A stretch of DNA of 64,000 nt from an uncultured Candidatus Sumerlaeota bacterium (lineage in GTDB: Bacteria; Sumerlaeota; Sumerlaeia; MVZB01). Of this stretch, positions 2,104 to 49,150 are shown one piece after another. Under the pieces are notes generated by a model, which worked only from the letters and a program-made list of their open reading frames with translations, ran no database searches and had not been told where the DNA came from. The stretch spans positions 8,468-72,467 of the forward strand of contig CAYYNQ010000097.1 in assembly GCA_964473105.1 (NCBI GenBank). The letters run 5' to 3'. The position numbers and the translations under genes are program-made. Numbering within the stretch: the first letter of the stretch is position 1; every line of letters begins with the position of its first letter.

Positions 2104-3033
2104 TGAATCGCCTTGCATGTTTATCCGGTCTTGCCGTCATTGTTGCGGATGCCAGATTTCAGCCGTAACTTTGAACCGTTACCCATTATCGGTGAGCTAC
2201 CAGCTAGTTGCCGGTTCATATGATGTGATGGAAAAATATCCGATTATCAGAATACATTGAGGAAGCGAAATGGACAAAGGGTGCGACTCTCCGTATTTCA
2301 GGGGGCTTTTTTTTCTCTTTCCCTTCCGTCTTGATGCACAAGTAGGGAGAGGACAGAGGATAATGTCCCGTTTATTGAAGTATAATTACGATGGTCCCCT
2401 TGGCGGTTTGTGAGAAAGGTAACTCTGAATGGGTCCGGGGTCGGTTCCACAGTGGGGTTGTAGAGAAGTTGTAGTGAGCAGGACGGGTGGACATAAAGGG
2501 GAGAGACTGGTGGGTTTTGATTTATATCGAATTTAAGGACAGCTTAATTAGCCTATCACATCCTAGGAACCAATTCTGTGAGTCCTATGGGGTCACCCAC
2601 AATGGAAATATGGCATCACACTACTGAAGAATAAGGAAGGTTGGACACCTGAACCTGATAAAAATGGGCACAAAAGGATTCCAAATAAGGACGGAATTTG
2701 GCAGAAACAGATGAATAACAGGTTTTCCTGGGATTTCGGTGATCCGTTAGTCGTTTCTCTGACGGTAGCCTAAGGGCTAGACCCTGATAGGGGTAATCCG
2801 TGTGACATAAGGCTTTTAACGAAAATCAAAAAGATTCTTTCTTTCCGGCATGAAAATGGCCCAAGTCTTCAGTTGACAGGCATCGGGATGCATGTCAAAT
2901 TATATCTCGGTGAAAAATGCAGGCGGTGATACGGGCGTCACGGCACATTCAGTGCAGATCGCTGCTTTTGTTTGTTTTGAGCCGGGGTATCTACTCCAGA
3001 TACTGGAAATATGGTGGTGGGTTAAATTATATA

Positions 3034-4133: not shown

Positions 4134-4685
4134 ATGTCATCGCTTGTCTTATCACTGGACCAGTTCCTGCATCATCCTTTGGTTGAATCCGTATGCTTTG
4201 CCCCTGCTGATCTCGAACTTGAGGATCCTCAATTCAGTTTCACTCAGGATCTCGTAGGGGAGGTGACCTTTGCCAGAATGGGCGAAGATGTCATGGCAAC
4301 CGGGTCCTTGAAAACCCGCGCGGAGACATTTTGTGTTCGTTGTCTCGGGCTAGTCTTGGTTGAATTGGTTATTAATGTTTCCGAAGTATGGCTCGGGAAG
4401 GAGGAACTGATGCTCGAGATGGACAGAAGCCAAGGACCCCATTCGCTGCATCGGGTCCTTGAAGGGGATACACTGGAATTGAAAGATGTATACCGTGAAC
4501 TCGTCATGTCCGAGCTTCCGGAGCGATCTTACTGCGATAAGGGTTGCTGGGGCTTGTGCTCCCAGTGTGGCCAGAATCTCAATCTGGCCCAGTGTCGATG
4601 TGATATCACAAAAAAGAGCGATGGGGACACGCTGGACCTGCCCGTCTGGAAAAAAGCCCTGAAAGATATAGATGTTGGGTCCTGA
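4134..4685 (+). CDS. YceD/DUF177 family protein (large-subunit rRNA accumulation protein-like)
   Basis: About 180 aa with an acidic N-terminal domain and a C-terminal cysteine cluster 'CDKGCWGLCSQCGQNLNLAQCRC', typical of DUF177. Confidence 0.65.
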   Translation: MSSLVLSLDQFLHHPLVESVCFAPADLELEDPQFSFTQDLVGEVTFARMGEDVMATGSLKTRAETFCVRCLGLVLVELVINVSEVWLGKEELMLEMDRSQGPHSLHRVLEGDTLELKDVYRELVMSELPERSYCDKGCWGLCSQCGQNLNLAQCRCDITKKSDGDTLDLPVWKKALKDIDVGS

Positions 4686-4744
4686 TAAACTTTGGCCGGG
4701 GTGGCCCAGCAAGCTGAAAAGACGTCAGTATGGCTTGAAATCAG

Positions 4745-5735
4745 TTGACAGCACAGGATGATATCCACCTCGGTCCCAGACAGGAAACCAATGGGCCACT
4801 GTTCCCGCAGGACAGAATGAGATTGAGGGACCCTCTAAAAAAGATTACCCCGCTGCAATGGGTTTTGACAGCCCTGCTGGTTACCCTGATCGTTATTGAA
4901 CATAGGGTCCCTGTCTTGTGGATGTATAGGCGTAGGATCTTGGAGGCCTCCTATTATTCCCATGGGTTCGTCGTTCCAGTGGTTTCTCTTTGGTTGGTCT
5001 GGCGCGATCGAAACGCCCTTTTTTCCCTGTATGGTGGGACGGTTTGGCCGGGCTTGTTTCTGCTCGTGGCCGGACAGTTGATCTTGGTGTTGAGTGGCCT
5101 GGCCTTTGTGTTCTTTACCGGTATGTTCGGGATGATTCTGACAATATGGGGCCTAGCCGGGTTTTTGTTTGGTAGCCGTGTGCTCATGTGCCTTGGTTTC
5201 CCGTATTCATTCTCCTGTTCATGGTTCCGCTGCCGTTGGCGATAATTGCCAAAATCAGTTTGAGTATGAAACTGATGGCAGCTCAGATAGCGATCATGAT
5301 GATCGAGATTCTGGGCATTCCCGCGGTTATTGATGGATCAACAATCTATCTCAGTGAAGCGGTTGTGACCGTGGGTAATGTTTGCTCCGGACTTCGATCG
5401 TTGATATCCCTGATATTCATCGGTGTTTTGTTTGCCTGGATGAGTAATTTATCCACAATGCGGAAGGGCATCCTTACTCCTGTCTGCCATTCCTATTGCC
5501 ATTCTTCCCAATGTTGCAAGGGTATTCATACTCTACCTTTTCGCATCATAGATGGGGGACGGATTTCATCATCGGCCTAGCCCACGATATATCCGGGTAT
5601 CTGATCTTTATTTTTGCCTTTTCGCTCCTTTGTGGAGTTACGAAAATTATTTCATTCGGGCTGAAGCCTGTGGTCCGCGAACCCCATCAGGAATTCACCG
5701 AATCGACGACGGGAAAGGAGAAACTGGATGTTTAA
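4745..5735 (+). pseudogene. Exosortase (Xrt) disrupted by three single-nucleotide frameshifts
   Basis: Exosortase motifs are distributed over three reading frames. 'YYSHGFVVPVVSLWLVW' is in frame 2 (4745-5245). 'LLFMVPLP' and 'GNVCSGLRSLISL' (catalytic Cys/Arg region) are in frame 1 (5188-about 5466). 'LLLSAIPIAILPNVARVFILYL' is back in frame 2 (5441-5551). 'HHRWGTDFIIGLAHDISGYLIF' is in frame 0 (5496-5735). The shifts fall at about 5203, at the GGG run 5466-5468 and at the TTTT run 5538-5541. Confidence 0.75.
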
Positions 5736-6312
5736 CATCCGGATACGGGTCATTGTTGCATTCATCATGATCCTTTTATTTGCTCTGTCTTCGGTTACAC
5801 TTTACCGGGGAAAGGCGGTCCGTGGATCACTGAAGGCCGCCTAGATTCCCCTGATTACGGAAGGCTGGTATGGGGTTGAAGAATCCATCGATGAGGAAAC
5901 CAGGCGGATACTTGAGACCGATGACGTGATTACCCGGACCTATTTGGAGTCCGGAAACAAAAATGGATCTGTTAATATGGCTGTTGTATATTCACCCGAT
6001 AACCGCCGGGTAGTCCACCCACCTGAGGTATGCTACAAGGGGGCCGGTTGGGAATGCAGCGAGAAGGTTGTAGTGCAACACGATGGAATTCCTCCGTTGG
6101 TTCGGTTGAAACTAGCAAACAGTAACAGCCGTCAGGACATCGTTCTCTATTGTTACAAGGCCGGTAATGAAATTACGTCCAACTACTACCGTCATCAGTT
6201 GAACATCATCGCCAACCAGACCCTGATGAGGGCGACCTCGTCGGCGCTGTTACGGTTCTCTACTGCGGTGATGCCCAATGAACGTCAGGCTGATGCCGAA
6301 TGCGGGTTATAA
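5728..6312 (+). pseudogene. Exosortase-associated EpsI-family protein interrupted by an in-frame TAG
   Basis: ATG at 5728 follows a GGAG ribosome-binding site and encodes an N-terminal TM anchor 'MFNIRIRVIVAFIMILLFALSSVTLY...'. An in-frame TAG lies at 5842-5844. The same frame then continues into 'IPLITEGWYGVEESIDEETRRILETDDVITRTYLE...VVHPPEVCYKGAGWECSEK', which matches the EpsI family (the H-P-P-E-x-C-Y...G-x-G-W motif). The downstream ORF (GTG at 5926) would lack the anchor. Confidence 0.6.
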
Positions 6313-6470
6313 GATTTGTCCGGGAGATTGTGCCTGAAATACGAAATGCCTTGACGGACCGATTAATCTTCCAAACATCATCAATCTCCGCCATTTCGGG
6401 GGCCACCATGTGAAAAAATATTCTTCACCGTGGTTCTCGTCTCCTCATGGGGGTGACTAAATCAAACCCC

Positions 6471-7421
6471 CTAGGTCAGGATGCCCCGGCAAAGTTGTTC
6501 ATCGTGCTTTAACTGGTCGACCAAGTCCTCTAGGCAGGGGAATCTTTTCTCGTCACGTATCCTGGAGATGGGTGTGACCATAATATCTCTCCCATAGATG
6601 TCCCCATCGAAGTCGAACAGGTGAGCTTCGACCGTATGTCCGGATTCATCAAATGTCGGCCGGTTCCCAATATTCATCATCCCACTTAGCTTGGTGCGCC
6701 CATTATGTCTTGTGTTGCCGGCGAGAATCTCGCTCTCTACAGCGTAAACACCTTCTCGAGGGATCAGTTTCTCTGGATGGACAGCCAGGTTTACGGTCGG
6801 ATAGCCAATGGCTTGTCCTCTACCGTTTCCCTCGATGATTCTTCCCTGAAAGCTGTAGGCATGTCCGAGCATCAGACGGGCGCTGTCGAAATCACCCTCC
6901 ATGATGTCCTTTCGGATCCTTGTCGACCGGACCGGAATTCCGTTTTCCATCAACGTTTCACACTCAAGGATACGAAAGCCTTGCTCCGAGGAATGTTTTC
7001 TCAAAAGTTCGAGATTCCCCAGGCCCTGACTGCCAAATCGAAAATCGATCCCACAACTGATGGATTGAATCCTGCATATTTTGAGGAGGATTCCATTAAT
7101 GAAGGACTCGGCAGTTGTCTCGGAGAATACTGTGTCGAAATCAAGCATGCAGCATATGTCAACGCCGTATTTTTCAAAGAGCCGTATTTTTTCGTCGGCG
7201 GTGGTAAGCAGTTGTGGTGTATAAGGAGGGGCCAGAACGGTCAACGGGTGCTGGAGAAATGTGATTACGGTTGCCGGGAGACCGGTTTTGACCGCATCCT
7301 CGCGAATATTTCCCAGTAATATCTGGTGGCCCCGGTGGACCCCGTCAAAGACGCCGACACAGAGGCAGGCTCCCTCCCTGCAGAGCTCCTCAAGGTCATG
7401 AAGTTGATGAATCAGTTTCAT
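6471..7421 (-). CDS. ribF: Bifunctional riboflavin kinase / FMN adenylyltransferase
   Basis: N-terminal FAD synthetase domain ('GVFDGVHRGHQ') and C-terminal riboflavin kinase domain ('GYPTVNL...EAHLFDFDGDIYG'). 316 aa. Confidence 0.9.
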   Translation of the reverse strand: MKLIHQLHDLEELCREGACLCVGVFDGVHRGHQILLGNIREDAVKTGLPATVITFLQHPLTVLAPPYTPQLLTTADEKIRLFEKYGVDICCMLDFDTVFSETTAESFINGILLKICRIQSISCGIDFRFGSQGLGNLELLRKHSSEQGFRILECETLMENGIPVRSTRIRKDIMEGDFDSARLMLGHAYSFQGRIIEGNGRGQAIGYPTVNLAVHPEKLIPREGVYAVESEILAGNTRHNGRTKLSGMMNIGNRPTFDESGHTVEAHLFDFDGDIYGRDIMVTPISRIRDEKRFPCLEDLVDQLKHDEQLCRGILT

Positions 7422-12687: not shown

Positions 12688-13389
12688 CTACTGGGATTGG
12701 ATCACCAGGTAACCGGCGCGGTTCATATTGCCTGAACCTCCGGCACGATAGATGTTCCCCACACTTTTTGTCCCATTTGTCGGGTCATAGATTGTCCCCA
12801 GCAGGGCATTGGGATTCTGGTCAGCCTCGGCGAAAATTACCTGGATGTTGCTTTCCGGGTTGCCGGGTTCGGGTGGATCGGTCGGCCCGAAATTCGAGGT
12901 GAAACCCATCATCAGGTCCGGGCCGTTACTAATCAACAGCCACCAAGTTGCATTCTCACCGACGCTAATGTGGCCCAGGGTCTTGTTCCATGCAGATATC
13001 ATGCGTCCGTCCCGGGTCATCGGGTCCCACTGGTATGTGGTATACATCGTGCTATCATCACGACGCTCGACAAACGGATCCTGTATGTCCCCCGTGGTCA
13101 TATAGGCGATCGGTGTCGACAGCAGAAACAGGCTGTGGCTGCCATCCGGGTTGTTTCCGTCGATAAATTCACCAAAACCACTTGGCCAGCCGTTGTTATC
13201 CATGTGATAGGCCTCAATCGCGGTATTCAGGGAACGCATGTCGGTTTTGACACGGCTGACCTTGGATCGGGTCTGGGCTTCAAGGAAATTCGGCACGGCG
13301 ATGGCCGCAAGGATTGCAATGATAGCGACAACGATCAGTAGTTCAATTAACGTGAATCCGATTTTATCCCGAATGCTTAGGCTATTCAT
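12688..13389 (-). CDS. Prepilin-type N-terminal cleavage/methylation domain protein (DUF1559/H-X9-DG-like pseudopilin)
   Basis: 'GFTLIELLIVVAIIAILAAIAVPNF' class III signal/prepilin motif at the N-terminus. The ORF is open to 13434, but the Met before the prepilin leader is at 13389. Paralog of the gene at 49331-49996. Confidence 0.8.
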   Translation of the reverse strand: MNSLSIRDKIGFTLIELLIVVAIIAILAAIAVPNFLEAQTRSKVSRVKTDMRSLNTAIEAYHMDNNGWPSGFGEFIDGNNPDGSHSLFLLSTPIAYMTTGDIQDPFVERRDDSTMYTTYQWDPMTRDGRMISAWNKTLGHISVGENATWWLLISNGPDLMMGFTSNFGPTDPPEPGNPESNIQVIFAEADQNPNALLGTIYDPTNGTKSVGNIYRAGGSGNMNRAGYLVIQSQ

Positions 13390-13729
13390 TATATTTCTCC
13401 TATTTCGCAGATGATCCGCACTAGGTTCGTTCACCCTATGGTGGCCTGGGTTGGCCGGGGGGTGAGCGGAAGCTGTATGCTTTGAAATGGAAATCGGGCC
13501 ATCGAAAGCTTTCCTGCCCCGGGATGGTCCGGTTCAGGTTCAAAGGGTTTACTCTCAGCTCCGCATATGCGGGGCACCCCTAGCGTGGACTCAAGGATAG
13601 TGATTCCAAAATATCTGCGCAAGATGAAAAATATGGGAGGCATCGCTGTATTCAGGTTTATGGTCGGGCTCCGGCATTTTTGATGGCTGTTGGGAAGGGA
13701 GCAGTGAGGGAATGGAACCAAGAGTCTAG

Positions 13730-16175: not shown

Positions 16176-18620
16176 TCAATCGATTTGGCCCGGAGCCTGA
16201 AAATCCGTGTTGAGCGGTCCCCTGTATACCAGTTCGGCCTCCCGGAGCGTAATATGTTGTCTTCCATAATCACCGGGAACAAAATCTGTCATCCATGTTG
16301 GCAGCCTGCCATCGGTTCCTTCGTGGGCTATGGATCGAATGAACAGCATTTCAAAAGGTTTTTCGGATTTGAACATGATTCTGAATGTTTCTGGATCCCT
16401 TGAGTTAAATACCATCGAGCCGACCGCATTCTCACCTGGCGGGACGTAAATATAGACGACGGGCCATTGTCCCCGTGGCGCCAGCAGGTTTGCGCTACGG
16501 GTCCCACCGCCCTTCAGGCGGAGTTCGTATTCACCGGAGGGACTGTCCGGGCATGTAAACAGATGCTCCCGGGTGCCGGTCAGTCGGTATCCCTGTAGAA
16601 TCATGTTTTTGTATGACCGATGACCGGACCAGATCGTGGGCTGGATATGATGAACAAGGGGGTGGATGTAACGGAAGAGTCGTCGGATCGATTCTCCCTT
16701 CGTTTTGAAGGGGGAATCGCCGGGTGTCCTGATCTCGATATTGAATGGCAGAGTCCGCAGTGATTTATCCCCCGGCGTTATCCATGCATCCTTGATAGGA
16801 AAGACGTCGATGCGGTATTTCCCGTCAGGAAAATATTTGGGGACTTCAAATATGTATTCCACTGGTATGTGAGAATTTTGAGGGAGGCATAACACGCCTC
16901 CTGTCATGTAGGAAAAACCGCCTGTCCTGATAGGGACGGGAACTGGTTTGTCTAGGCCAAGATGCCACCATCGGAGACCCATTAACCTTGTCTGTTCAAG
17001 GTGTTTCCATGTTATTTCCAGTGCGAAGCTGGTTCCGCGGTCGATCGACAAGGTTTTATCGTCCAGGGAATACCGGTTGGCCGGGTATATCCCGCCTCCA
17101 GGCCAGATGACCCCCGGTTCCTCGATCAGTTGTTCCCGGTCGGGATTGACCGGATTCTGTGGCACCCGGCCGGCCCTTTCATCATTGTCGAACAAAATCC
17201 CGTTCGGTTCACCGGGCAGGCTTGCCCACCGGATCCAGCTGACGGATGCAAGATCAAACACTTTTGGATCAAAACGGTCGATTGAATAAAAGAACCGGCT
17301 CTCTGGGGTCTTGCTGATATTGCCGAAACCGGTTCCGGTGATCAGGCTGACAGATCCTTCCATATCGTCGTTATATGCCTGTTCGTCGACAGGGATGTGT
17401 TTGCGATATACATCCACTACCTGTTCTATCTCGGGGCGCGGTTCAGCCGGATGTCCGAGTCTGGGGCCCAGTGGGTATAAAATCATGACCAGGGCGATGC
17501 AAGACAGGATACCCATGAAGGTTTCCACCGGCCTGCCGCGGGGCAGATGCCGGGACAACCTTGTTTCCTGCGCCGTAAAATTATTCCAGGCAATGGCGGC
17601 AAGGAGAAACATCTGATCCATTCCCCAGGCGGCCAGTGCCATTCCGGGAATGAGCAGATGACAAAAGTTGTAGACATTGATGTTGACGAGTAAATAGAAG
17701 CAAACCAATGCCGTGATGGCCGTGACCTGAAAAATCCACGGCGAGCGGAAGAGGCCGATCAATGCAAAAAAGATACCCGGCATGGTGAAGACCAGGACGA
17801 TCCGGGACAGGTACACCTTGTCCCAGAGTGTGGTTCCGAACCAACTCGCAAAATCGATATAGGTCACCCTGAACTGGTCTTTGAAAGAAAGCGCAATCTG
17901 GACTGGGTTGATATTGATCATCGCAAGAACGAAGGCGGTGGCGGCGATGATCAATATCAAAGCCACGATTCGCGTGCTTCGGGAGAGCCGACGTCCGCAA
18001 AGCAGGGCCAATAGAACGGACGGTAGCCAGACAAGCGAGGTTAACTTGGCAAGGGCTGAAAACATCAAAAGGAGGATCATGCAGAGCAACGGCCCGTATG
18101 TGTATCGGTTCTGTTGATGCAGTCTGAAGAAGAAAACCAATGCTCCGGCCTGGAACAGAAGGGCGAGTGGTTCGGCTAGGATAAGGCGGGAAATATCGGC
18201 ATGGAATGGATTCAAGCCGATCGCTGCGGTGAAAAACAGCGTGATTCGTCGGCGCGAGGCAATGGTTGTTGCCGGGCGGGCGGTGGCCATGAAAACTGCC
18301 AGCGCGGCCAGCAGGATAGTCAGTATGCTGAAGATGACGTTATAGGTGCGTGCAAGCGTCCATATTTCACAATTGAAAATCCGGCAGAGGCCGGAGGTTT
18401 TCCCGCTGATCCATGGAAGAATCTGAAGCTCGAGCCAGGATCTTCCGACATGGATAGATCCGGAACCGTCCATGATACGCTCAGTGAAAACATGGCTGGA
18501 ACGTTGCCGATCGGCCGGAAAATCGACTGGCGGCATGTCCAGTTGATTGGATCGGATATAAAGGGAGGCTACAAGAATCAGGAGGAATATTGGCCAGAAA
18601 CCCCGGCGGCTTTCGAGCAT
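16176..18620 (-). CDS. Large integral-membrane protein with C-terminal extracytoplasmic domain (putative GT-C fold glycosyltransferase, YfhO/ArnT/PMT-like)
   Basis: 815-856 aa. The N-terminal roughly 420 aa contain at least 10 predicted hydrophobic helices, and the C-terminal roughly 430 aa are soluble. It sits inside the glycan cluster. Start chosen at the Met at 18620 (MLESRRGFWPIFLLI); the ORF is open to 18746, which would overlap the DegT gene. Confidence 0.45.
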   Translation of the reverse strand: MLESRRGFWPIFLLILVASLYIRSNQLDMPPVDFPADRQRSSHVFTERIMDGSGSIHVGRSWLELQILPWISGKTSGLCRIFNCEIWTLARTYNVIFSILTILLAALAVFMATARPATTIASRRRITLFFTAAIGLNPFHADISRLILAEPLALLFQAGALVFFFRLHQQNRYTYGPLLCMILLLMFSALAKLTSLVWLPSVLLALLCGRRLSRSTRIVALILIIAATAFVLAMININPVQIALSFKDQFRVTYIDFASWFGTTLWDKVYLSRIVLVFTMPGIFFALIGLFRSPWIFQVTAITALVCFYLLVNINVYNFCHLLIPGMALAAWGMDQMFLLAAIAWNNFTAQETRLSRHLPRGRPVETFMGILSCIALVMILYPLGPRLGHPAEPRPEIEQVVDVYRKHIPVDEQAYNDDMEGSVSLITGTGFGNISKTPESRFFYSIDRFDPKVFDLASVSWIRWASLPGEPNGILFDNDERAGRVPQNPVNPDREQLIEEPGVIWPGGGIYPANRYSLDDKTLSIDRGTSFALEITWKHLEQTRLMGLRWWHLGLDKPVPVPIRTGGFSYMTGGVLCLPQNSHIPVEYIFEVPKYFPDGKYRIDVFPIKDAWITPGDKSLRTLPFNIEIRTPGDSPFKTKGESIRRLFRYIHPLVHHIQPTIWSGHRSYKNMILQGYRLTGTREHLFTCPDSPSGEYELRLKGGGTRSANLLAPRGQWPVVYIYVPPGENAVGSMVFNSRDPETFRIMFKSEKPFEMLFIRSIAHEGTDGRLPTWMTDFVPGDYGRQHITLREAELVYRGPLNTDFQAPGQID

Positions 18621-18684
18621 GCCGAAATGGTGTTCACGGTTGCGCCATTGAATGACAGGGCTGTCATGAGAATCCGTCACAGAT

Positions 18685-19863
18685 TCAATTTTGACCGGAC
18701 AAGAAATTTTGAATATTTTCAACGACGTAGTGTTGTTGAGACTCATTTAATTCGGGAAAGATCGGGAGTGCGAGTGCCTCCCGGCTAGCCTGTTCACTGA
18801 TGGGCATCATGCCTTTGCGGTAGCCGTGGTTCTTAAAGCAGGGCTGGAGGTGCAAGGGGAGTCCATAATATACATTGCAACCGATCCCGTTTTCCCTCAA
18901 GCAGGCCAAGAGTCCATCGCGTCTTTCCGGGTGCACGCGGATGACATACTGATGATACACATGGTTTTCAGAGATTGTCACAGCCGGGAATACGGTCGTC
19001 GGATCTAGCTGATCGGGGGATTGTGAACAGATGCCAGCCTCGCTGAGCAGCCGCCCATACCGGGCGGCATTCTCTGCCCTTGCCCGGCACCAGTCCTCCA
19101 GTAGAGGCAGTTTGACTCTGAGGACGGCAGCCTGCAGTGCGTCCAGTCGGGAATTGATTCCCAAAATCTCATGAATATACTGGCCGGTTTGGCCGTGGTG
19201 TCGCAACAGGCGCAGTTTCATACCCAGTTTCTCATCATGGCAGGTCATGAGGCCACCGTCCCCGAAACAACCTAGGTTTTTAGATGGAAAGAAACTGAAA
19301 CACCCGATATCACCCACTGTGCCGGCCTTTTTGCCATGCCAGGTTGCCCCAATTGCCTGGGCGGTGTCCTCAATTATTGCAATATCGTTCCCGACCTTCA
19401 GGTCCAGGAGTCTCTGCATATCGACACACTGGCCAAAAATATGGACGGGGATGATGACTCGCGTGCGGGGTGTGATCAGCGATTCAAGTAGACGGGTATC
19501 CATGTTGAAGCTGACCGGGTCAATATCACAGAAGACCGGTTTTAAGCCAAGGCGTACGATGGCTCCAACAGTTGCAAAAAAAGTGTAGGGGGATGTGATG
19601 ACCTCATCGCCAGGTTTCAAATCCAGGGCCATTAATGCGATTAGCAGTGCATCTGAACCTGAGGCGCAACCAATTGCATGAGATGAACCAAGCCATTCCG
19701 AGATCTCCTTTTCGAATAATTCCACCTCGGATCCCAAGACAAACCGCTGGGACTCAATAATACGCCGGACGGAAGATTCGATAGATTCCCTTATGGTCTC
19801 ATACTGTGATCCGAGATCCAGCATTTTGACGGAAGTGACTGGGTTGATTTGTTGTGAACTCAT
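18685..19863 (-). CDS. DegT/DnrJ/EryC1/StrS-family PLP-dependent sugar aminotransferase
   Basis: 'GSEVELFEKEISEWLGSSHAIGCASGSDAL' and 'FSFFPSKNLGCFGDGG' (PLP-lysine region). 392 aa. Confidence 0.85.
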   Translation of the reverse strand: MSSQQINPVTSVKMLDLGSQYETIRESIESSVRRIIESQRFVLGSEVELFEKEISEWLGSSHAIGCASGSDALLIALMALDLKPGDEVITSPYTFFATVGAIVRLGLKPVFCDIDPVSFNMDTRLLESLITPRTRVIIPVHIFGQCVDMQRLLDLKVGNDIAIIEDTAQAIGATWHGKKAGTVGDIGCFSFFPSKNLGCFGDGGLMTCHDEKLGMKLRLLRHHGQTGQYIHEILGINSRLDALQAAVLRVKLPLLEDWCRARAENAARYGRLLSEAGICSQSPDQLDPTTVFPAVTISENHVYHQYVIRVHPERRDGLLACLRENGIGCNVYYGLPLHLQPCFKNHGYRKGMMPISEQASREALALPIFPELNESQQHYVVENIQNFLSGQN

Positions 19864-28174: not shown

Positions 28175-28199
28175 GGTAAAACCGCGCCCCAACTCCGAC

Positions 28200-28345
28200 C
28201 TATACCAACCGGATTCCGACAATCAGCCGGCTCCCCGCGGGCACTCCCGTAACACAAGCTCCAAAACTTCTTAGGGCTGCTTCCGCCAGGACCTGACCCG
28301 GTTCGAAGCGGAACCTTGCTCGGGACCTTTGGATCGACGCCACTT
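28200..28345 (-). ncRNA. ffs: Signal recognition particle RNA (4.5S/ffs), boundaries approximate
   Basis: The minus-strand read of 28274-28301 is 'CCGGGTCAGGTCCTGGCGGAAGCAGCCC'. This matches the universally conserved SRP RNA domain IV ('GGUCAGGUCC-loop-GGAAGCAGCC') 20/20 in the two conserved arms, with a UGGC tetraloop. It lies in a 600-bp region with no credible ORF. Confidence 0.55.
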
Positions 28346-28554
28346 AACTGCCTTCCACCAACCAGTAAAAGCCTCGGAAGGGTATTCAGTCCTGCTAAGC
28401 GGATTGCAGGCTACAGGGCACCGCTAACTCCCCACCTAGCGCGGTTGACCCGATATCTTACATATTCGTCCCGGGGATGCAACGGTCTCGTTATCCGAAC
28501 CCTGATCGGGGTTGCCCCCCTGCATAAAACCAGAGGCCAAAGACCCATAACCGG

Positions 28555-33000: not shown

Positions 33001-33413
33001 TTTCCTGGGCATTCAAAGGTTCAGCCGGTTTTTTCGAACTTGTTTCAGTGCCGGTTTTCCTGTTGGTTTCCTGCCTTCATGTGGTCGCGAAACAGGCGTG
33101 CTCCAATGGTGTTCCGTCTGGCCTGTGGCCGGTCCGTTGGACGGCCGCGGGTGTCGTTTCCATGCCATTCCCTTCTTCGAAGGCTCCCATGGCATGGCAT
33201 TTATACCGATGATATCCTGTAGTTTATGCGATTCCCCGTTGACAGATCTGGGTCGTTATAAGAGAATGTGCCCGGATTCAATCTGAGATTATGGTTTAAT
33301 CGGACAAGTGACGTTGCGGATTTGGGCTTACCTGCGCGATGTCCTGTTTCCGTGGCGTTTACCGTGATCCGGATCTGGATTTCATCAGTTTGGGAAACAA
33401 GGGGGCAGTCGTG

Positions 33414-35609
33414 ATGGCTGCGGAAAAACAAGAACAATTGGGAAACGAATTCGAGGAATCTGGGAGCGATGTGTTCAAAGGGTCCTCTGCGGGTGAACTG
33501 GGGGCAACTTCGCCTCCCGGGCCCACAGCCGAGTATCAAGATGGGAATGTGGCGGACGATGAATACTTTGATCCCTCGGAGGTGGAATCCGCCCCCGATG
33601 AGATGGATGCCATGATGGATCAGTTTCTGGACCAGATGACCCCGAATGTCAAGCGGGGTCAGTTGATCCGGGTGCCGGTTGTTGCAGTGAAGAGCGATGG
33701 GATTCTCTTGGACGTTGGTGACAAGTCCGAAGGTTTTGTCCCGTTGAGGGAGGTGGAAGATGGCCGCGGTGATGTGACGGTTCAAGTGGGCGATGTCCTC
33801 GAAGTGATCATCAAGAACCAGGACCCGGAAACCGGACTGATCGGCCTGTCTTATCTTGAGGCAAAACGGCGGAAGGCGTGGCAGCATGCGGAGGACTGCT
33901 TCAAAAACAAAAAGCCCATCAACGGAAAGATCATCCGTACAGTCAAAGGCGGAGTTATCCTCGATATTGGGACGACCGCGTTTCTGCCAGCCTCGCAGGT
34001 CGACCTTATGCGCATTGAAGATTTTGAGGAACTGATTGGGCGGGAAGTTCAGGGATATGTCATCGAGTTCGAACCGGACAAGCGAAGGATCATTGTGTCC
34101 AGGCGAGCTTTGCTTGAGGAGGAGCGTGACAAGATTCGCGGCGAGATTCTCGGCAAGTTGGAGCTCGGCCAAGAACTGGATGTGAATGTGAAGCGACTTG
34201 TCAATTTTGGCGCCTTTGTTGATGTTCAGGGGCTGGACGGCCTGATTCCCCGTAGTGAGATCTCGTGGCAGCGTAGTGCGCGACCTGAGGAATATCTGAC
34301 TGTCGGGGAGACAGTCCGGATTCGTATAGTGGAGATCGACCGCAAAAAAGGCAAGATCACGCTTTCTAGAAAGCAGGCCATGTCAGATCCATGGCCTGCT
34401 GCGGAGGCCGACTATTCTATTGGGTCCAGGGTGAGCGGTAGGGTTGTGTCAATCACCAATTATGGTGCCTTTGTGCGTTTGCGGGAGGGGCTGGATGGCA
34501 TGGTGCACATATCTGACATGGCCTGGGACAGCCACGGAAGGAAACCCTCGGATTTTGTGGAGACCGGGGATGAAGTGGAAGTCCAAGTGCTTGCTCTGGA
34601 TTTGTCCGAGCGGAGGATTTCACTTGGTATGAAGCAGCTTGTTCCCGATTCATGGTCTGAGATGATCGAGCGTTACCCCAAGGGCAGTCGCTTCAAGGGC
34701 AAGGTTACCGGATTAACTCGATTCGGTGCTTTCGTTGAGTTGGAATCCGGTGTCGAGGGGATGGTACACATTTCCGACTTTTCTTGGGAGAAACGTATTG
34801 AACACCCCAAGGACGTTGTCAGCAGTGGTGATGAAATTGAGGTTTGTATCCTTTCTGTTGACCTGGAAAAGCGAAGGGTTTCACTTGGGGTCAAACAGCT
34901 TGTGAAGAGCCCCATGGAAAAGTTTCGGAAATCATTCAAGGCAGGAGACCTCGTCGAGGGCAAGGTTGTCCGGGTGAGTGACCAAGGCGCCTTCATTCAA
35001 CTAGCTGAGGGAGTGGAGGGTTTCATGCATGTTTCGCAGATTGACACAGACAGGGTCGAGAATCCCGCAGATATTCTGAAAGAGGGTGAGACGGTCCGCT
35101 CCAAGGTCACGAAGATCGAGCGGGGAAACAAGATTGCGCTTAGCCGCAAGGCGATGCTCAAGGCGCAGGAAAAGAAAACCATTTCCACATACATGAGATC
35201 CGGTTCCACAGAGGATAGCCTGCTGAATATGGGTGAACTTCTTGAGGATCTCCAGATCGAGGATGAACTAGGCCTTAGAAAATCCAAAACCGCGGAATCA
35301 GTGGGCCCGACTGAGGCAACCCCCTCGGATGATAATGGGAAAATATCCGCAGCTGGGAATCCATCCGTTGACCCTGTTCCCGGGTTTTCAGAAGATACAG
35401 CAGCACTCGACGCTGGAGCCGACCCTCGAGATCATGACAAACTGGTTGCTCAGCAGGCTCCCGATGAATTCGCCATGGACCAGTCCGATGAAAATCCTCC
35501 TTCTGTCATGGTGGGTGAATCTGGGGATTCGCCGGAATCTGAAGGTGCTGAATCCAACGGATCCGATATCACTCAATCCGAACATGACCCCTCCTCAACA
35601 GAAAACTGA
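33414..35609 (+). CDS. rpsA: 30S ribosomal protein S1 with acidic/low-complexity C-terminal extension
   Basis: Six tandem S1 domains (e.g. 'GAFVDVQGLDGLIPRSEISWQR', 'GAFVRLREGLDGMVHISDMAW', 'GAFVELESGVEGMVHISDFSW') followed by a D/E/S-rich tail of about 150 aa. ATG at 33414; the ORF is open from 33339. Confidence 0.85.
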   Translation: MAAEKQEQLGNEFEESGSDVFKGSSAGELGATSPPGPTAEYQDGNVADDEYFDPSEVESAPDEMDAMMDQFLDQMTPNVKRGQLIRVPVVAVKSDGILLDVGDKSEGFVPLREVEDGRGDVTVQVGDVLEVIIKNQDPETGLIGLSYLEAKRRKAWQHAEDCFKNKKPINGKIIRTVKGGVILDIGTTAFLPASQVDLMRIEDFEELIGREVQGYVIEFEPDKRRIIVSRRALLEEERDKIRGEILGKLELGQELDVNVKRLVNFGAFVDVQGLDGLIPRSEISWQRSARPEEYLTVGETVRIRIVEIDRKKGKITLSRKQAMSDPWPAAEADYSIGSRVSGRVVSITNYGAFVRLREGLDGMVHISDMAWDSHGRKPSDFVETGDEVEVQVLALDLSERRISLGMKQLVPDSWSEMIERYPKGSRFKGKVTGLTRFGAFVELESGVEGMVHISDFSWEKRIEHPKDVVSSGDEIEVCILSVDLEKRRVSLGVKQLVKSPMEKFRKSFKAGDLVEGKVVRVSDQGAFIQLAEGVEGFMHVSQIDTDRVENPADILKEGETVRSKVTKIERGNKIALSRKAMLKAQEKKTISTYMRSGSTEDSLLNMGELLEDLQIEDELGLRKSKTAESVGPTEATPSDDNGKISAAGNPSVDPVPGFSEDTAALDAGADPRDHDKLVAQQAPDEFAMDQSDENPPSVMVGESGDSPESEGAESNGSDITQSEHDPSSTEN

Positions 35610-37889: not shown

Positions 37890-40472
37890 ATGTATCAAGG
37901 GCTGATGGATATACGGTTCCTTTTTTTGATGCAGGTAACTCGTATGTGTCTCCTGCCATTTTTCCTGTGGCTTGTCCTGGGGGCTGCGGCTGGCCTGTCT
38001 GCAGAGGAGCCTGCGCCGGCTGTTCCGGTCATGCCGGCCGAGGATGTCCCGAGTTCGGCAACACTGGGGGGCGAGGAAGGTCTGGGTGAATCCGGAGTCA
38101 CCGAAACCCTGGCTGAGTTTACCTCCTCCAATGGAACTCCTGCGGGAGGCGGCGAGGACGTTATATCGAGCGGGGGTGAGCCCACGCAGGGGGAGGACAT
38201 GCCATTGATACGTCCTGAACTTCCCAAACTCACGCTAATTGTCAAGCAAATGGAAATCGACCTGATCACAGGCAGAATCCACAAACAGACTGGCATCAAT
38301 GTCAAGGCGATTGGAAACACCAAGTCCATCAAGATGGATCTGGTTGCTCAGGATGTGGACATTGAGAGCGTTCTGAACAAGATCACCGTTCCGAACCAAT
38401 GGAAATGGGTGAGATTTCAAGATGGGCATTATGAAATCATGGATCAACAGACCTTCACTGAGCGGATTACAGCCAATCAGGTCAAGCGGGTCAGTTTCAA
38501 GTTGAAACATATCGACGCGACCGAGCTCGAAAAGGTCGTCAGCCCAATCAATACACCCGAGGTCGGGGCTACGGCGGTTGATGTACGCACGAATACGCTG
38601 ATCGTGACCGATTTGCCTGACAAGCTTGCATTGATAGAGAGTATTGTCGCCGAGTATGACATCGCCCTGACCACGCGCGTATTCGAAATTCGGGATGCCG
38701 ATACCGAGGAGATTGCCGAGCGGTTTGAGAACGTGATGTCCGAATCGGCCGTCATTGAGGTTGATGCGTTGAATCATATCATCATTGTCAAGGACACCTT
38801 CGAGAAGATCCGGATTATGGAGCAGTTGATCGAGGTTTTTGACCGTGACCGAGATGTGCGCGTCTACAACTTCACCAATGTCGGGCTTGAGGGAGATGTC
38901 GCACTTGCAATTGTCGAGACCTTCCTTGAGCCTCTCGTGACCGAGGACGCACTGCTTGAGTATAACGAGGATTTGAACAAACTTCTGGTCCGTGATGTCA
39001 ACTCCGTGCACGCCAAGATCGAGGAGATTCTGCTTGCCTTGGATGAACCTCGCAAACAGGTCCTCGTCGAAGGGGAAGTGCTCTCGGTCGAGTTGAACGA
39101 GTCGTTCTCACTCGGTTCGGACTGGGTTTACTCACTGGGGCAGAGTATTCCACGGGATGGTCTCGGCATGGAACGAGCAACCTTGAGTCAGGATTTCATT
39201 GGCGGGACATCCCAGCCTGTCAATTCATCTGAAAATGGTGATACCGGGAGTAGTACGAGCAGCGGTGGAACAACGGACGCATCGGGTTTCAAGCTGTTCA
39301 CTCACAGCGACCGGGTGATCTACCAGTTGGAGGCGGCATTATCCGACAACCGGACGCGACTTCTGGCCCGGCCGCGTATCCTGATCGCTAACAATGAACT
39401 TGGACGTTTCGAGGTGGCCCGTAATGAGCCGATTCGCCAGACTTTCTTCAGTGGCAGCAATATGTCATCAGGATATAATAATAATTACCGTTCCTCCGGT
39501 CAGTCGCTAATCCCCACGGGTTTGATCATTGAGCTTACCCCCTTCATCAGCAACCGTGGGCTGATTGAAATGGAGGTTCAGTTTGAGAACAGTGTCCCAT
39601 TGATCGTCGAAGATATCGGCGATGGGAACCGTGGGGTCGGGACAACGGAGGAAACTGCTGAAACCTACCTCATCATTCCCGATGGTGAAACGAGGCTCAT
39701 CGGCGGATTGATTACGCAGGATACGGCTGAATCCGTTACCGGGATTCCGTTTCTAACGCGGATTCCTATTGTCGGTTATCTCTTCGGAAAGAAGACAACC
39801 GAGGAGACAAATCGAAACTTGCTGTTTTTCATGACACCTACGATCATCATCGAAGAACCGAAGAACAAGCTGCTCGTGGAGCCCGTCAATCTTATGGCCA
39901 AGCGCACCATGGCCCAGGATGAGACAGTCATGGTTCGCCCGGATGACCTCAATGAAATTCCCGAGGAACTTCTGCCCTACCTCGAGGATGTACGTAGTGG
40001 TGGTGCATGGCATTCAGGCGTTTCGGATACGGATTCGACGGCCACGCTCCAGATTGATCTGCCGACAACAACAACTGAAACCATAGGGATGGATCCCTCG
40101 GGCCTCGGTGCATCATTATTAAGGGATTCCGGATTTCTTGATCCCGGGCGGGGTGAATCGGAGTTAAAGGTCGGAGGGGCCATGCAGTATGTCAAATCCC
40201 AGGCTGGCCCGAGCGGAACATTCGGTAGCGGAAAGGCAAAAACCTCCCGATCCCGTTCTGGCGAGAAGGTCGATTATAGCAAGAAGGGGACAGGGATTAC
40301 CCCTCCCGAGGTCCGTGAACGCTTCAAGGCGGAAGAAAAAGCTCGGAATAGGAAAAAGAACAGAAGCCGGAAGAGACGGGCATCGCGCGGCGCGGGAGAG
40401 CGTGATGTCGATTTGATCGGCGGTAACCCGCCCAATACCCCACCGCCAACTCAGACCGAGACAAGTCAGTAA
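37890..40472 (+). CDS. Secretin (GspD/PilQ family) of a type II secretion or type IV pilus system, with long basic C-terminal tail
   Basis: Signal peptide 'MCLLPFFLWLVLGAAAGLSA'. N-domain-like repeats ('TNTLIVTDLPDKLALIESIV', 'LNHIIIVKDTFEKIRIMEQLIEVFD', 'NKLLVRDVNSVHAKIEEILLALD'). Secretin C-domain ('RLLARPRILIANNELGRFEV', 'LIGGLITQDTAESVTGIPFLTRIPIVGYLFG', 'LLFFMTPTII'). The C-terminal roughly 200 aa are Ser/Gly/Lys/Arg-rich. Confidence 0.8.
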   Translation: MYQGLMDIRFLFLMQVTRMCLLPFFLWLVLGAAAGLSAEEPAPAVPVMPAEDVPSSATLGGEEGLGESGVTETLAEFTSSNGTPAGGGEDVISSGGEPTQGEDMPLIRPELPKLTLIVKQMEIDLITGRIHKQTGINVKAIGNTKSIKMDLVAQDVDIESVLNKITVPNQWKWVRFQDGHYEIMDQQTFTERITANQVKRVSFKLKHIDATELEKVVSPINTPEVGATAVDVRTNTLIVTDLPDKLALIESIVAEYDIALTTRVFEIRDADTEEIAERFENVMSESAVIEVDALNHIIIVKDTFEKIRIMEQLIEVFDRDRDVRVYNFTNVGLEGDVALAIVETFLEPLVTEDALLEYNEDLNKLLVRDVNSVHAKIEEILLALDEPRKQVLVEGEVLSVELNESFSLGSDWVYSLGQSIPRDGLGMERATLSQDFIGGTSQPVNSSENGDTGSSTSSGGTTDASGFKLFTHSDRVIYQLEAALSDNRTRLLARPRILIANNELGRFEVARNEPIRQTFFSGSNMSSGYNNNYRSSGQSLIPTGLIIELTPFISNRGLIEMEVQFENSVPLIVEDIGDGNRGVGTTEETAETYLIIPDGETRLIGGLITQDTAESVTGIPFLTRIPIVGYLFGKKTTEETNRNLLFFMTPTIIIEEPKNKLLVEPVNLMAKRTMAQDETVMVRPDDLNEIPEELLPYLEDVRSGGAWHSGVSDTDSTATLQIDLPTTTTETIGMDPSGLGASLLRDSGFLDPGRGESELKVGGAMQYVKSQAGPSGTFGSGKAKTSRSRSGEKVDYSKKGTGITPPEVRERFKAEEKARNRKKNRSRKRRASRGAGERDVDLIGGNPPNTPPPTQTETSQ

Positions 40473-44993: not shown

Positions 44994-45680
44994 TCATTGC
45001 GGGTGGGTATTGGTGCGGCCCTGGACAAGACGTACGGTTCCATCCGCGTAGAGGGCATGCTCGATATCCAGATCAGTTCCCCATGGATAGCCGAAGTCTG
45101 CCGGGTAGTTCGGGAACAATCCGCCGTAAAAACCATCCAAGGGGCCAAGGTAAAGATCTCTCACCATCCACACGTTGCCTTCCATGATATTTCCGGCACC
45201 GCCTTCGTGCCCCCCTGAGCTGACTGCCGAACTGTTATATGCGTAACGGAAATTATGGTAGCGTGGATGACCGCCACGTATTGTCTCGCCGTCTGGGTAG
45301 AGTCTCAGGTAATGGGGATTGAACATGGTATGCCAGTCACCTAGGTATTTCAGTTCAAGCAGGATCCAGGGCAGGCCATCCCAGGATCCCCCCGCAGCTG
45401 GGGCATTGCCGGTTTGAAAATATTCCGGACCGCTCGATGAAAACGGACCGGCTTCGTGGTCTGCGGGTGGCAGGGTATTGTGATCGACCTGATAGGTCTG
45501 TAGCGCAATGGCGATCGTGTGCAGGTTGCCTGCATTGGCAGCGCGGAGGCCGCGTTCCCGGGCGTCGTGGAAATTGACAACCGCGACGGCTGCCAGGATT
45601 CCGATGATCATTACGACCACCAGGAGTTCGATCAGCGTGACCCCCCTCATATCATCTGGTTTGTGGCAGGTTTCTGGCAA
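44994..45680 (-). CDS. Prepilin-type N-terminal cleavage/methylation domain protein (DUF1559-like pseudopilin)
   Basis: 'RGVTLIELLVVVMIIGILAAVAVVNF' prepilin leader/TM; 228 aa. The likely start is the internal Met at 45650. Confidence 0.8.
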   Translation of the reverse strand: MPETCHKPDDMRGVTLIELLVVVMIIGILAAVAVVNFHDARERGLRAANAGNLHTIAIALQTYQVDHNTLPPADHEAGPFSSSGPEYFQTGNAPAAGGSWDGLPWILLELKYLGDWHTMFNPHYLRLYPDGETIRGGHPRYHNFRYAYNSSAVSSGGHEGGAGNIMEGNVWMVRDLYLGPLDGFYGGLFPNYPADFGYPWGTDLDIEHALYADGTVRLVQGRTNTHPQ

Positions 45681-47194: not shown

Positions 47195-47228
47195 GTGGAA
47201 TGATCTTTCCCTTGGATCCTTCATGGGG

Positions 47229-48551: not shown

Positions 48552-49122
48552 GTGATTCCACGCATCCAGTCAGGAGATCATGATCTTTTTCCGGAATGGG
48601 GATCCGGGCGGTTCACGGCCCGGGACTTCGGGACGAGATCTGGATCAATGACCAGAGGCCCCATTCCCCGGACAGAAATGCTTGCGCTGAGTAAATCGTG
48701 GCAGTGGAAAAGGGTGTCGAGATTTCCGGAACAAGACCACTCATCCGCTGGCCGGTTAGCCTACGTTAGACGGATGAAAACTGTCTGATTGAGCCGGATA
48801 CCGCTGTCCTCTTAACACACGAAAAAAACAGGGCAACAGGCTTCCGTACGCCGGTCTTCTGGCTTCCGGATCATCCTACCGGCCGTCCCTTCCCGGTAAT
48901 ATTTTACCAGTGGTTCTGACGACTTTCGTCCCCGGTCACAGCGGCGTGTCCGCGGTGGTTTTGCACCACCTTCCCTTACACGCACGGAAGTCAACATATG
49001 TCCGGTGACATACTAACCACGGAGGCAGGACGGAGTCAACTGGTTGTTTTTTGCATAAGCGCGAGCGCTCGATATTGTGGAGGCACACCCCTATTTTTCT
49101 TTTGCGGAGGGGCTACGGGGGG

Positions 49123-49128
49123 TATAAT
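49123..49128 (+). promoter_or_regulatory. Putative -10 element (TATAAT) for tRNA-Pro
   Basis: TATAAT at 49123-49128, 23 bp upstream of the tRNA 5' end. A weak -35-like 'TTTGCG' lies 16 bp upstream of the -10. Confidence 0.4.
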
Positions 49129-49150
49129 GTAATCCCTGTGTCTGCCTGGG

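What the first reader, a model, noticed from the sequence alone, without database searches (positions are those of the whole stretch)
4745..5735. Exosortase gene inactivated by three single-base frameshifts, two at homopolymer runs
All diagnostic exosortase blocks are present, including the 'NVCSGLRS' catalytic Cys/Arg region, 'IPIAILPNVARV' and the 'HDISG' His region. They are spread over three reading frames.

Removing one G from the GGG run at 5466-5468 and one T from the TTTT run at 5538-5541, and restoring one base near 5203, reconstitutes a single exosortase ORF of about 330 aa. Long neighbouring genes (856-aa, 860-aa and 756-aa ORFs) are intact, which argues against generalised homopolymer sequencing error and for a genuine pseudogene. 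Alternatively it could be a slippage-prone switch. Loss of exosortase implies loss of PEP-CTERM protein sorting in this organism.
Basis: partly seen in the sequence, partly recalled or inferred. Interest (0 to 1): 0.6.

Follow-up and report, generated by a model that had tools for sequence, protein, structure and literature searches.

The report
Dead exosortase–EpsI gene (real pseudogene)
A membrane protein-sorting gene (exosortase fused or paired with EpsI) in an uncultured Sumerlaeia-like bacterium has been broken by six or seven small mutations that recur in independent assemblies, so it is a genuine but ordinary pseudogene.

Summary
Window 4817-6366 (+) is the remnant of an exosortase–EpsI gene. 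Its closest relative (70% aa, locus L001) is one intact 518-aa fused ORF in the same place, between yceD and ribF.

Against relatives, the window carries:
- three 1-nt frameshifts in the exosortase domain (~5190-5196, ~5466-5477, ~5538-5548);
- an 11-nt linker deletion (~5727), which may be a harmless fission;
- an in-frame TAG (5842-5844);
- two more 1-nt indels in EpsI (6299-6300, 6359-6360).

The three catalytic motifs (Cys-x-Gly, Asn-x-x-Arg, His-x-x-x-Gly) lie in three different frames and in three different stop-bounded ORFs.

About 13 neighbouring genes match their L001 orthologues full-length in one frame. The rest of the window shows normal domain coverage.

Two assemblies cover the whole remnant with zero indels: ENA scaffold_501 and a Logan SRR5002379 contig. 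A Logan DRR683874 contig covers 5420-6661 at 100% identity. Assembly error and phase variation are therefore rejected.

dN/dS of the EpsI remnant (0.18) matches intact neighbours, so the inactivation is recent.

The homopolymer attribution is not established. Organism-wide loss of PEP-CTERM sorting cannot be tested from 64 kb. Interest is low.

The parts
4817..5192 (+). xrt remnant, segment 1 (ATG 4817; N-terminal TM helices), frame 2
   Evidence: PF09721 positions 8-105, E=4e-10. 69% aa identity to P0001 residues 1-127.
5190..5196 (+). Lesion 1: 1-nt deletion relative to L001. Best fit is CTTTGG->CTTGG, which restores ...MCLWFPVF.
   Evidence: Frameshift-aware alignment and MAFFT DNA alignment against L001.
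5194..5475 (+). xrt remnant, segment 2, frame 1. Holds the Cys-x-Gly motif (TGC 5383-5385).
   Evidence: PF09721 positions 103-193, E=9e-24. Motif codons and frame.
5466..5477 (+). Lesion 2: 1-nt insertion. The exact base is ambiguous (GGG 5466-5468, CC 5472-5473, TT 5474-5475 or A 5476).
   Evidence: homologue alignment.
5474..5545 (+). xrt remnant, segment 3, frame 2. Holds the Asn-x-x-Arg motif (AAT GTT GCA AGG, 5510-5521).
   Evidence: PF09721 positions 196-219.
5538..5548 (+). Lesion 3: 1-nt insertion. Best fit is just after the conserved Ala codon 5543-5545. Frame 2 then hits TAG 5549-5551.
5547..5735 (+). xrt remnant, segment 4, frame 0. Holds the His-x-x-x-Gly motif (CAC 5583-5585 ... 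GGG 5595-5597) and ends at TAA 5733-5735.
   Evidence: PF09721 positions 218-252.
5722..5730 (+). Linker: 11-nt deletion relative to the fused orthologue L001. It separates the xrt and epsI frames (overlapping ATG 5728 / TAA 5733-5735). It may be a benign fission, because split xrt|epsI occurs naturally in L007 and L008.
5728..5841 (+). epsI remnant, N-terminal membrane-anchor part, frame 1
   Evidence: PF11984 match over the stop-masked 194-aa product, 93.6 bits; alignment to P0001.
5842..5844 (+). Lesion 5: in-frame TAG, aligned to Asn (AAC) in L001 and Ser in P0003.
   Evidence: TAG is an ordinary stop here, used by 9 of 52 genes.
5845..6298 (+). epsI remnant, main DUF3485/EpsI domain, frame 1
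   Evidence: TIGR02914 54.3 bits against a cut-off of 42.8. 86% aa identity to the intact L072.
6299..6300 (+). Lesion 6: 1-nt deletion (GAAATG in L072 -> GAATG). Frame 1 then stops at TAA 6310-6312.
6301..6358 (+). Displaced EpsI C-terminal tail (RVIRFVREIVPEIRNALTD), readable only in frame 0
6359..6360 (+). Lesion 7: 1-nt insertion (CC against C in L072), immediately before the ancestral stop TAA 6364-6366.

Best explanation
Window 4817-6366 (+) is a recently inactivated pseudogene of an exosortase–EpsI membrane protein. It has several independent disabling mutations. The organism is an uncultured bacterium whose nearest named relatives are Candidatus Sumerlaeia MAGs.

The ancestral gene sat between yceD and ribF. 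It encoded a polytopic exosortase with a Cys/Arg/His active site, fused to (or immediately followed by) a membrane-anchored EpsI domain. In this lineage it picked up six small indels and one nonsense codon. As a result, no translation product can carry more than one of the three catalytic motifs, and the EpsI domain is cut off from its N-terminal anchor and its C-terminal tail.

Shown here: the homology, the lesions, the intact neighbours, the intact orthologues, and the same lesions in other assemblies.

Inferred: loss of function; that the mutations are fixed in the natural population; and that the loss is recent, because the remnant still shows the substitution pattern of a gene under selection.
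For: 1. Family identity. The segments map in order onto PF09721. The spliced product scores 172.7 bits on PF09721 and 150.8 bits on TIGR02602 (cut-off 105.55). The downstream part scores 93.6 bits on PF11984 and 54.3 bits on TIGR02914.

2. Intact syntenic orthologue. P0001 is 518 aa, fused PF09721+PF11984, and 70% identical. It lies on L001 in the order BacA, polyprenyl synthase, MreB, YceD, [xrt-epsI], RibF, GT4, FtsY....

3. Only this gene is broken. Thirteen L001 neighbour proteins each give one near-full-length tblastn hit in a single frame, at 61-97% identity. The remaining window ORFs show full-length Pfam domain coverage.

4. The lesions are mapped against L001 and L072.

5. The lesions recur in other assemblies.
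- ENA ERZ23495038 scaffold_501 is a short-read scaffold with an N gap. It has 5 SNPs over ~13 kb, none of them inside 4745-6420, and 0 indels.
- The Logan SRR5002379 contig equals window 4549-6365 with 0 gaps.
- The Logan DRR683874 contig equals window 5420-6661 at 100%.
- The window differs from all five other assemblies that cover position 4705 (C against G), so it is a separate consensus.

6. The three catalytic motifs lie in three frames and in three different stop-bounded ORFs. The motifs are defined in PMC1569441.

7. L072, a relative about 87% identical in nucleotides, has the EpsI C-terminus intact. Lesions 6 and 7 therefore arose after that split.

8. dN/dS between window and L072 is 0.18 for the EpsI remnant, against 0.31 for RibF and 0.17 for GT4. 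The inactivation is therefore recent.
Against: - No raw reads were examined.
- It is unknown whether the NCBI source contig was assembled from one of the same runs as the other assemblies. SRR5002379 and SAMN05991696 may be the same sample.
- Lesion 1 is confirmed in only two other assemblies.
- The relative-rate test shows no acceleration specific to the pseudogene. Relaxed selection is therefore inferred from the lesions, not from substitutions.
- The 11-nt linker deletion may be a natural gene fission and not a lesion.
- There are no expression data.
Confidence: 0.93

Rival explanations
1. Assembly or sequencing artefact: the indels are consensus errors (for example homopolymer miscalls) and the real gene is intact.
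For: Several of the indels could sit in short runs: GGG 5466-5468, TTTT 5538-5541, AAA->AA at 6299-6300, and CC at 6359-6360.
Against: - Two other assemblies cover the whole remnant and a third covers 5420-6661. They come from at least two sequencing projects, include a short-read scaffold, and show zero indel differences.
- All lesions fall inside one gene, while about 10.8 kb of neighbouring orthologue-aligned coding sequence has none. Under uniform error that has P of about 4e-6 to 3e-5.
- One lesion is a base substitution to TAG and one is an 11-nt deletion. Neither is a homopolymer-type error.
Confidence: 0.02
2. Phase-variable (contingency) switch: slipped-strand mispairing at short runs turns exosortase expression on and off.
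For: Some of the indels may lie in 2-5-nt runs.
Against: - Restoring function would need five or more simultaneous reversions in both directions, plus reversion of a TAG.
- The gene contains no tract of 7 nt or longer.
- The assemblies show no tract-length differences.
- The orthologues L001 and L072 do not carry expanded tracts at these sites.
Confidence: 0.01
3. Recoding: programmed ribosomal frameshifts and/or TAG read-through yield a full-length protein.
For: A -1 slip on T_TTC_CCG (5197-5203) would give a product colinear with the orthologue (...CLGFPVF against ...RLWFPVF). This is my own reading.
Against: - It would need at least five recoding events of both signs plus stop read-through in one mRNA.
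- The orthologues (L001, L006, L007, L008, L072) read in a single frame through each of these sites. L007 and L008 change frame only at the xrt|epsI boundary, because they are naturally split. The frame changes are therefore not conserved.
- TAG is an ordinary stop here, used by 9 of 52 genes.
Confidence: 0.01
4. Partly functional remnant: the split is a natural xrt|epsI fission, and one or more fragments (for example the 111-128-aa EpsI core, 5926/5977-6312) are still expressed and useful.
For: - Split xrt and epsI genes are natural in L007 and L008.
- The EpsI remnant has a low dN/dS of 0.18.
- Gene callers do call ORFs of 111, 119 and 142 aa here.
Against: - The EpsI core would lack its N-terminal hydrophobic anchor, which lies upstream of the TAG, and its conserved C-terminal tail.
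- No exosortase fragment holds more than one catalytic motif.
- The low dN/dS is explained equally well by recent inactivation.
Confidence: 0.04

Closest known systems
Exosortase / EpsH family (TIGR02602, PF09721; Haft et al. 2006, PMC1569441)
   Same: - The spliced sequence matches above the curated cut-offs.
- All three invariant motifs (Cys-x-Gly, Asn-x-x-Arg, His-x-x-x-Gly) are present as codons.
- The spliced product has many hydrophobic segments.
- EpsI homology lies directly downstream or fused, as described for a subset of EpsH proteins.
   Different: - There is no intact ORF here.
- The motifs are spread over three reading frames.
- The gene does not sit immediately inside a dedicated EPS locus. 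It lies between the housekeeping genes yceD and ribF, although glycosyltransferase genes begin about 1-8 kb downstream.
- No PEP-CTERM-type substrate was found in the 64-kb window.
Fused exosortase–EpsI subtypes XrtD (TIGR04152, VPLPA-CTERM-specific) and XrtW (NF038142)
   Same: The domain architecture matches: exosortase, linker, TM anchor, EpsI. These are also the best-scoring subtype models for both the window remnant and its intact orthologues.
   Different: The scores are far below the curated cut-offs, even for the intact orthologue P0001 (XrtD 271 against 400; XrtW 237 against 425). The clade is therefore neither XrtD nor XrtW, and its cognate sorting signal is unknown.
Ordinary bacterial multi-hit pseudogenes (frameshift plus nonsense decay of a dispensable gene)
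   Same: - Several independent small indels and a premature stop are confined to one gene.
- The neighbours are intact.
- Relatives keep an intact orthologue.
   Different: Nothing unusual. The only notable points are the number of lesions despite a still gene-like substitution pattern, and the recurrence of the lesions in metagenomes from separate projects.

Membership tests
Exosortase/EpsH (TIGR02602, PF09721) | Sequence match to the family HMM above the curated cut-off | tested here: met
   The spliced 306-aa product scores 150.8 bits on TIGR02602 (cut-off 105.55) and 172.7 bits on PF09721 (cut-off 25.7). The four fragments map in order onto the profile.
Exosortase/EpsH (TIGR02602, PF09721) | Invariant motifs Cys-x-Gly, Asn-x-x-Arg and His-x-x-x-Gly (PMC1569441) | tested here: met
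   The codons are present: CSG 5383-5391, NVAR 5510-5521, HDISG 5583-5597. They lie in frames 1, 2 and 0 respectively.
Exosortase/EpsH (TIGR02602, PF09721) | A single polypeptide with at least 8 TM helices that carries all three motifs (a functional gene) | tested here: not met
   The motifs lie in three different stop-bounded ORFs: 5176-5580, 5444-5551 and 5448-5735. The hypothetical spliced product has about 9-11 hydrophobic segments by a crude Kyte-Doolittle scan.
Exosortase/EpsH (TIGR02602, PF09721) | Co-occurrence with PEP-CTERM-type substrates in the genome | not testable with these tools
   Only 64 kb is available. The window has no ORF with a motif+TM+basic C-terminal tail and no second xrt copy.
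Named subtypes XrtA / XrtD / XrtW | Score above the subtype's curated cut-off | tested here: not met
   The intact orthologue P0001 scores XrtD 271.3 against 400, XrtW 237.1 against 425, and XrtA 167.4 against 208. The window's spliced product scores lower still.
EpsI (TIGR02914, PF11984/DUF3485) | Sequence match above the cut-off | tested here: met
   With the stop masked, the 194-aa product scores 54.3 bits on TIGR02914 (cut-off 42.8) and 93.6 bits on PF11984.
EpsI (TIGR02914, PF11984/DUF3485) | Uninterrupted ORF that includes the N-terminal anchor and the C-terminal tail | tested here: not met
   There is an in-frame TAG at 5842-5844, a 1-nt deletion at 6299-6300 and a 1-nt insertion at 6359-6360.
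Phase-variable contingency gene | A long homopolymer or SSR tract in the ORF, with tract-length polymorphism between samples | tested here: not met
   The longest runs at candidate sites are 3-5 nt. Other assemblies show zero indel differences.
Programmed ribosomal frameshift gene | A frame change conserved in orthologues at a slippery site | tested here: not met
   The orthologues in L001, L006 and L072 read in a single frame. L007 and L008 change frame only at the natural xrt|epsI boundary.

The most novel reading that the evidence does not exclude
The yceD-linked exosortase–EpsI gene of Sumerlaeia-like bacteria may be an undescribed exosortase subtype with an unknown C-terminal sorting signal, because no curated Xrt subtype model reaches its cut-off even for the intact members. 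The window's lineage would then be a natural knock-out that recurs in environmental populations sampled by separate projects. Comparing the full genomes of the intact lineages (L001, L072) and the broken one could reveal the cognate substrates, through their co-decay or loss.
Probability: 0.4. Interest if true: 0.3.

Novelty: new member of a known kind. Interest (0 to 1): 0.12.

Why it matters
It matters little beyond annotation. The locus should be annotated as one xrt-epsI pseudogene, not as three to five small 'exosortase/EpsI family' ORFs, which is how gene callers currently split it.

It also shows that this lineage has probably lost at least this exosortase-dependent surface-protein sorting function, while close relatives keep it. 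If whole genomes were compared, this natural knock-out could help find the unknown substrates of an unclassified exosortase clade.

Tried and rejected
- **Source genome search.** An exact 42-mer search of genome contigs for the source genome found nothing.
- **NCBI record look-ups.** Look-ups of the NCBI record through two window proteins were not on record. The source MAG's name and environment therefore stay unknown.
- **Accession search in papers.** A paper search for the run and sample accessions found nothing. Searching 'Sumerlaeota' with 'exosortase' also found nothing.
- **Metagenome scan for closer relatives.** It returned only one partial contig, L072, which covers the EpsI C-terminus. 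Lesions 1-5 therefore cannot be dated or placed more precisely.
- **Relative-rate test.** With L001 as outgroup, the test was inconclusive, because the window branch is also longer for the intact gene RibF.
- **Stop-codon reassignment.** TAG reassignment was considered and rejected, since TAG ends 9 of 52 genes.
- **Second copy and substrates.** A second xrt copy and PEP-CTERM-like tails were searched for in the window, and none was found.
- **Late placement of lesion 3.** I considered placing lesion 3 in the GGGGG run (5553-5557) with an additional in-frame TAG, because this fits the L001 DNA better. I rejected it for the earlier placement, because the resulting 'A-x-RWGTD' matches the A-N-[RQ]-W-G pattern of P0002 and P0003.

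Full report
**Observation**

Exosortase-like sequence runs through shifting frames: frame 2 (coordinate mod 3) from ATG 4817 to about 5192, frame 1 to about 5475, frame 2 again to about 5545, and frame 0 to TAA 5733-5735.

Each piece was scanned on its own. The four pieces hit Pfam PF09721 (Exosortase_EpsH) in order, at profile positions 8-105, 103-193, 196-219 and 218-252. Spliced together they score 172.7 bits on PF09721 and 150.8 bits on NCBIfam TIGR02602, whose cut-off is 105.55. The homology is far beyond chance.

**The unit is larger than reported**

The ORFs 5728-5844 and 5926-6312 share one frame and are separated by an in-frame TAG at 5842-5844. With the stop masked, they match EpsI/DUF3485 (PF11984 93.6 bits; TIGR02914 54.3 bits against a cut-off of 42.8).

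The closest homologue in the protein database, P0001, is 70% identical. It is a single 518-aa protein carrying both domains.

**Orthologue and synteny**

P0001 lies on a 72.5-kb JGI metagenome contig (locus L001). The gene order there is BacA, polyprenyl synthase, MreB, YceD, [xrt-epsI], RibF(-), GT4(-), FtsY, Zn-ribbon, LOG, PnuC, AAA_28, N_methyl(-), GT. The window has the same order.

A tblastn of every L001 gene product against the window gave one near-full-length hit in a single frame for 13 neighbours, at 61-97% identity. Only the xrt-epsI query was split across frames.

Pfam scans of the remaining large ORFs show ordinary, full-length domain coverage. They include glycosyltransferases, DegT, an epimerase, chorismate synthase, acetyl-CoA synthetase, ExbBD, S1, a helicase, a secretin, YebC, RuvC, PurN, DnaJ, RNase G, MiaA and Hfq. 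The genome is not generally decaying, and the assembly is not generally error-prone.

**Lesions**

I mapped the lesions with a frameshift-aware protein-to-DNA alignment against P0001, a MAFFT DNA alignment against L001, and, for the 3' end, a three-way alignment with a closer relative, L072.

| # | Window position | Change |
|---|---|---|
| 1 | ~5190-5196 | 1-nt deletion |
| 2 | 5466-5477 | 1-nt insertion |
| 3 | 5538-5548 | 1-nt insertion |
| 4 | ~5727 | 11-nt deletion in the variable linker |
| 5 | 5842-5844 | TAG, where L001 has Asn |
| 6 | 6299-6300 | 1-nt deletion (GAAATG -> GAATG) |
| 7 | 6359-6360 | 1-nt insertion just before the ancestral TAA 6364-6366 |

Lesion 4 may not be a defect. 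Sumerlaeia MAG loci L007 and L008 naturally have xrt and epsI as separate adjacent genes, while L001 and L006 read through in one frame.

The exact inserted base for lesions 2 and 3 cannot be fixed. The placements that best match homologues are KGI|LLLSAIP for lesion 2 and just after the conserved Ala codon for lesion 3, giving A-x-RWGTD (compare ANRWG and ANQWG in P0002 and P0003). Neither needs the GGG or TTTT runs. The 'two at homopolymer runs' detail is therefore unproven.

**Functional consequence (inferred)**

Haft et al. 2006 (PMC1569441) define the family by at least eight TM helices and three invariant motifs: Cys-x-Gly, Asn-x-x-Arg and His-x-x-x-Gly. All three survive as codons, but they lie in different frames and different stop-bounded ORFs:

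| Motif | Codons | Frame | Stop-bounded ORF |
|---|---|---|---|
| Cys-x-Gly (CSG) | 5383-5391 | 1 | 5176-5580 |
| Asn-x-x-Arg (NVAR) | 5510-5521 | 2 | 5444-5551 |
| His-x-x-x-Gly (HDISG) | 5583-5597 | 0 | 5448-5735 |

No product can carry more than one motif. The EpsI core is cut off from its N-terminal hydrophobic anchor by the TAG, and from its conserved C-terminal tail by lesion 6.

**Real mutation or artefact?**

Exact-product look-ups found other assemblies of the same organism.

- ENA ERZ23495038 scaffold_501 is 62,449 bp, from sample SAMN05991696. It contains an N gap, so it is a short-read scaffold. It matches about 13 kb of the window with 5 SNPs and no indels, and it is identical across 4745-6420.
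- A Logan contig from SRR5002379 equals window 4549-6365, with one intergenic mismatch and no gaps.
- A Logan contig from DRR683874, a different project, equals window 5420-6661 exactly, covering lesions 2-7.
- At position 4705 the window has C, while the five other assemblies that cover it have G. The window is therefore a separate consensus.

A simple clustering calculation gives P of about 4e-6 to 3e-5 that 5-6 random errors would all fall in this one gene and none in the 10.8 kb of aligned neighbour coding sequence.

Assembly error is therefore rejected, short of a read-level check.

**Other rivals**

- A phase-variable switch is rejected. It would need many simultaneous reversions of both signs plus reversion of a stop codon. 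There is no long tract, and the assemblies show no tract-length variation.
- Programmed frameshifting or read-through is rejected. The frame changes are absent from every orthologue, and TAG is a normal stop here, used by 9 of 52 genes. In passing, T_TTC_CCG at 5197-5203 would allow a colinear -1 slip, but that does not rescue the other lesions.

**Age**

L072 is about 87% identical in nucleotides. Its RibF is 83% and its GT4 92% identical at the amino-acid level. Its EpsI C-terminus is intact, so lesions 6 and 7 arose after that split.

Nei-Gojobori dN/dS between window and L072 is 0.18 for the EpsI remnant, 0.31 for RibF and 0.17 for GT4. Most of the divergence therefore accumulated under purifying selection, and the inactivation is recent.

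A relative-rate test with L001 as outgroup was uninformative, because the window branch is also longer for the intact RibF.

**Classification**

The nearest named genomes are Candidatus Sumerlaeia MAGs, at 51% identity, plus an unclassified MAG at 57%. All of them have YceD immediately upstream of the gene.

Even the intact orthologues reach only the general exosortase model. The subtype scores for P0001 are XrtD 271 against 400, XrtW 237 against 425, and XrtA 167 against 208. The clade has the fused XrtD/XrtW-like architecture but belongs to no named subtype, and its sorting signal is unknown.

The window contains no second exosortase and no ORF with a PEP-CTERM-like tail.

**Verdict**

This is a genuine, recent, multi-hit pseudogene of an exosortase–EpsI gene, and the same lesions recur in assemblies from separate sequencing projects. 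The corrections concern the extent of the unit, the lesion count, the lesion positions and the identity of the catalytic Arg.

Biologically it is an ordinary finding. Its only wider use would be as a natural knock-out for finding the substrates of an unclassified exosortase clade.

Noticed in passing
window 48832-49000 (-), with downstream genes 47229-48551 (-), 45830-47224 (-) and 44994-45680 (-): A cobalamin riboswitch (Rfam RF00174, 99 bits) sits upstream of a PQQ_2/BamB-like beta-propeller gene. That gene is followed by a 464-aa ORF with no Pfam match and a prepilin-type N_methyl protein. This is an unusual set of genes for B12 control, and the propeller might be a B12-binding surface protein.
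   Followed up: no
window 2104-3033: A 930-nt stretch upstream of mreB has no convincing ORF and a lower GC content (45% against 52%). The equivalent gap in L001 is only about 320 nt, and just a ~41-nt block (window ~2861-2901) is conserved at 90%. It could be a leader or regulatory element, or decayed DNA.
   Followed up: partly
window 28182-28444 (-): A bacterial large SRP RNA (RF01854, 153.6 bits) lies in the ORF-poor stretch between the cytidylyltransferase-like gene and the acetyl-CoA synthetase gene.
   Followed up: no
window 49163-49238 (+): tRNA-Pro (CGG). The mechanical ORF 49036-49503 (-) overlaps it and is therefore probably spurious.
   Followed up: partly
window 16176-18746 (-): An 856-aa ORF has no Pfam match at E<=1e-3. 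It is embedded in a cluster of glycosyltransferase, DegT aminotransferase, hexapeptide acyltransferase and GT2 genes (13.7-21.7 kb). This may be an uncharacterised envelope-polysaccharide component.
   Followed up: no
window 12688-13434 (-), 44994-45680 (-), 49331-49996 (-): Three paralogous ~220-250-aa proteins carry a prepilin-type N-terminal methylation motif (PF07963). A secretin gene lies at 37890-40472.
   Followed up: no
window 33339-35609 (+): The ribosomal protein S1 homologue is unusually long at 756 aa. Six S1 domains match, and the best stretch begins around residue 447. The N-terminal ~300 residues show only weak or no domain hits, so an extra N-terminal domain or fusion is possible.
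   Followed up: no
window 4705; L005 at window 4181-4209: Position 4705 (intergenic, between yceD and xrt) is C in the window but G in all five other assemblies that cover it. ENA scaffold_501 has a run of N inside yceD at window 4181-4209, and this made its gene caller report an aberrant 203-aa product.
   Followed up: yes
window 5197-5203: T_TTC_CCG in the zero frame of xrt segment 1 has the shape of a -1 slippery heptamer. A slip there would give a product colinear with the orthologue. I judged this coincidental, given the other lesions and the lack of conservation.
   Followed up: partly
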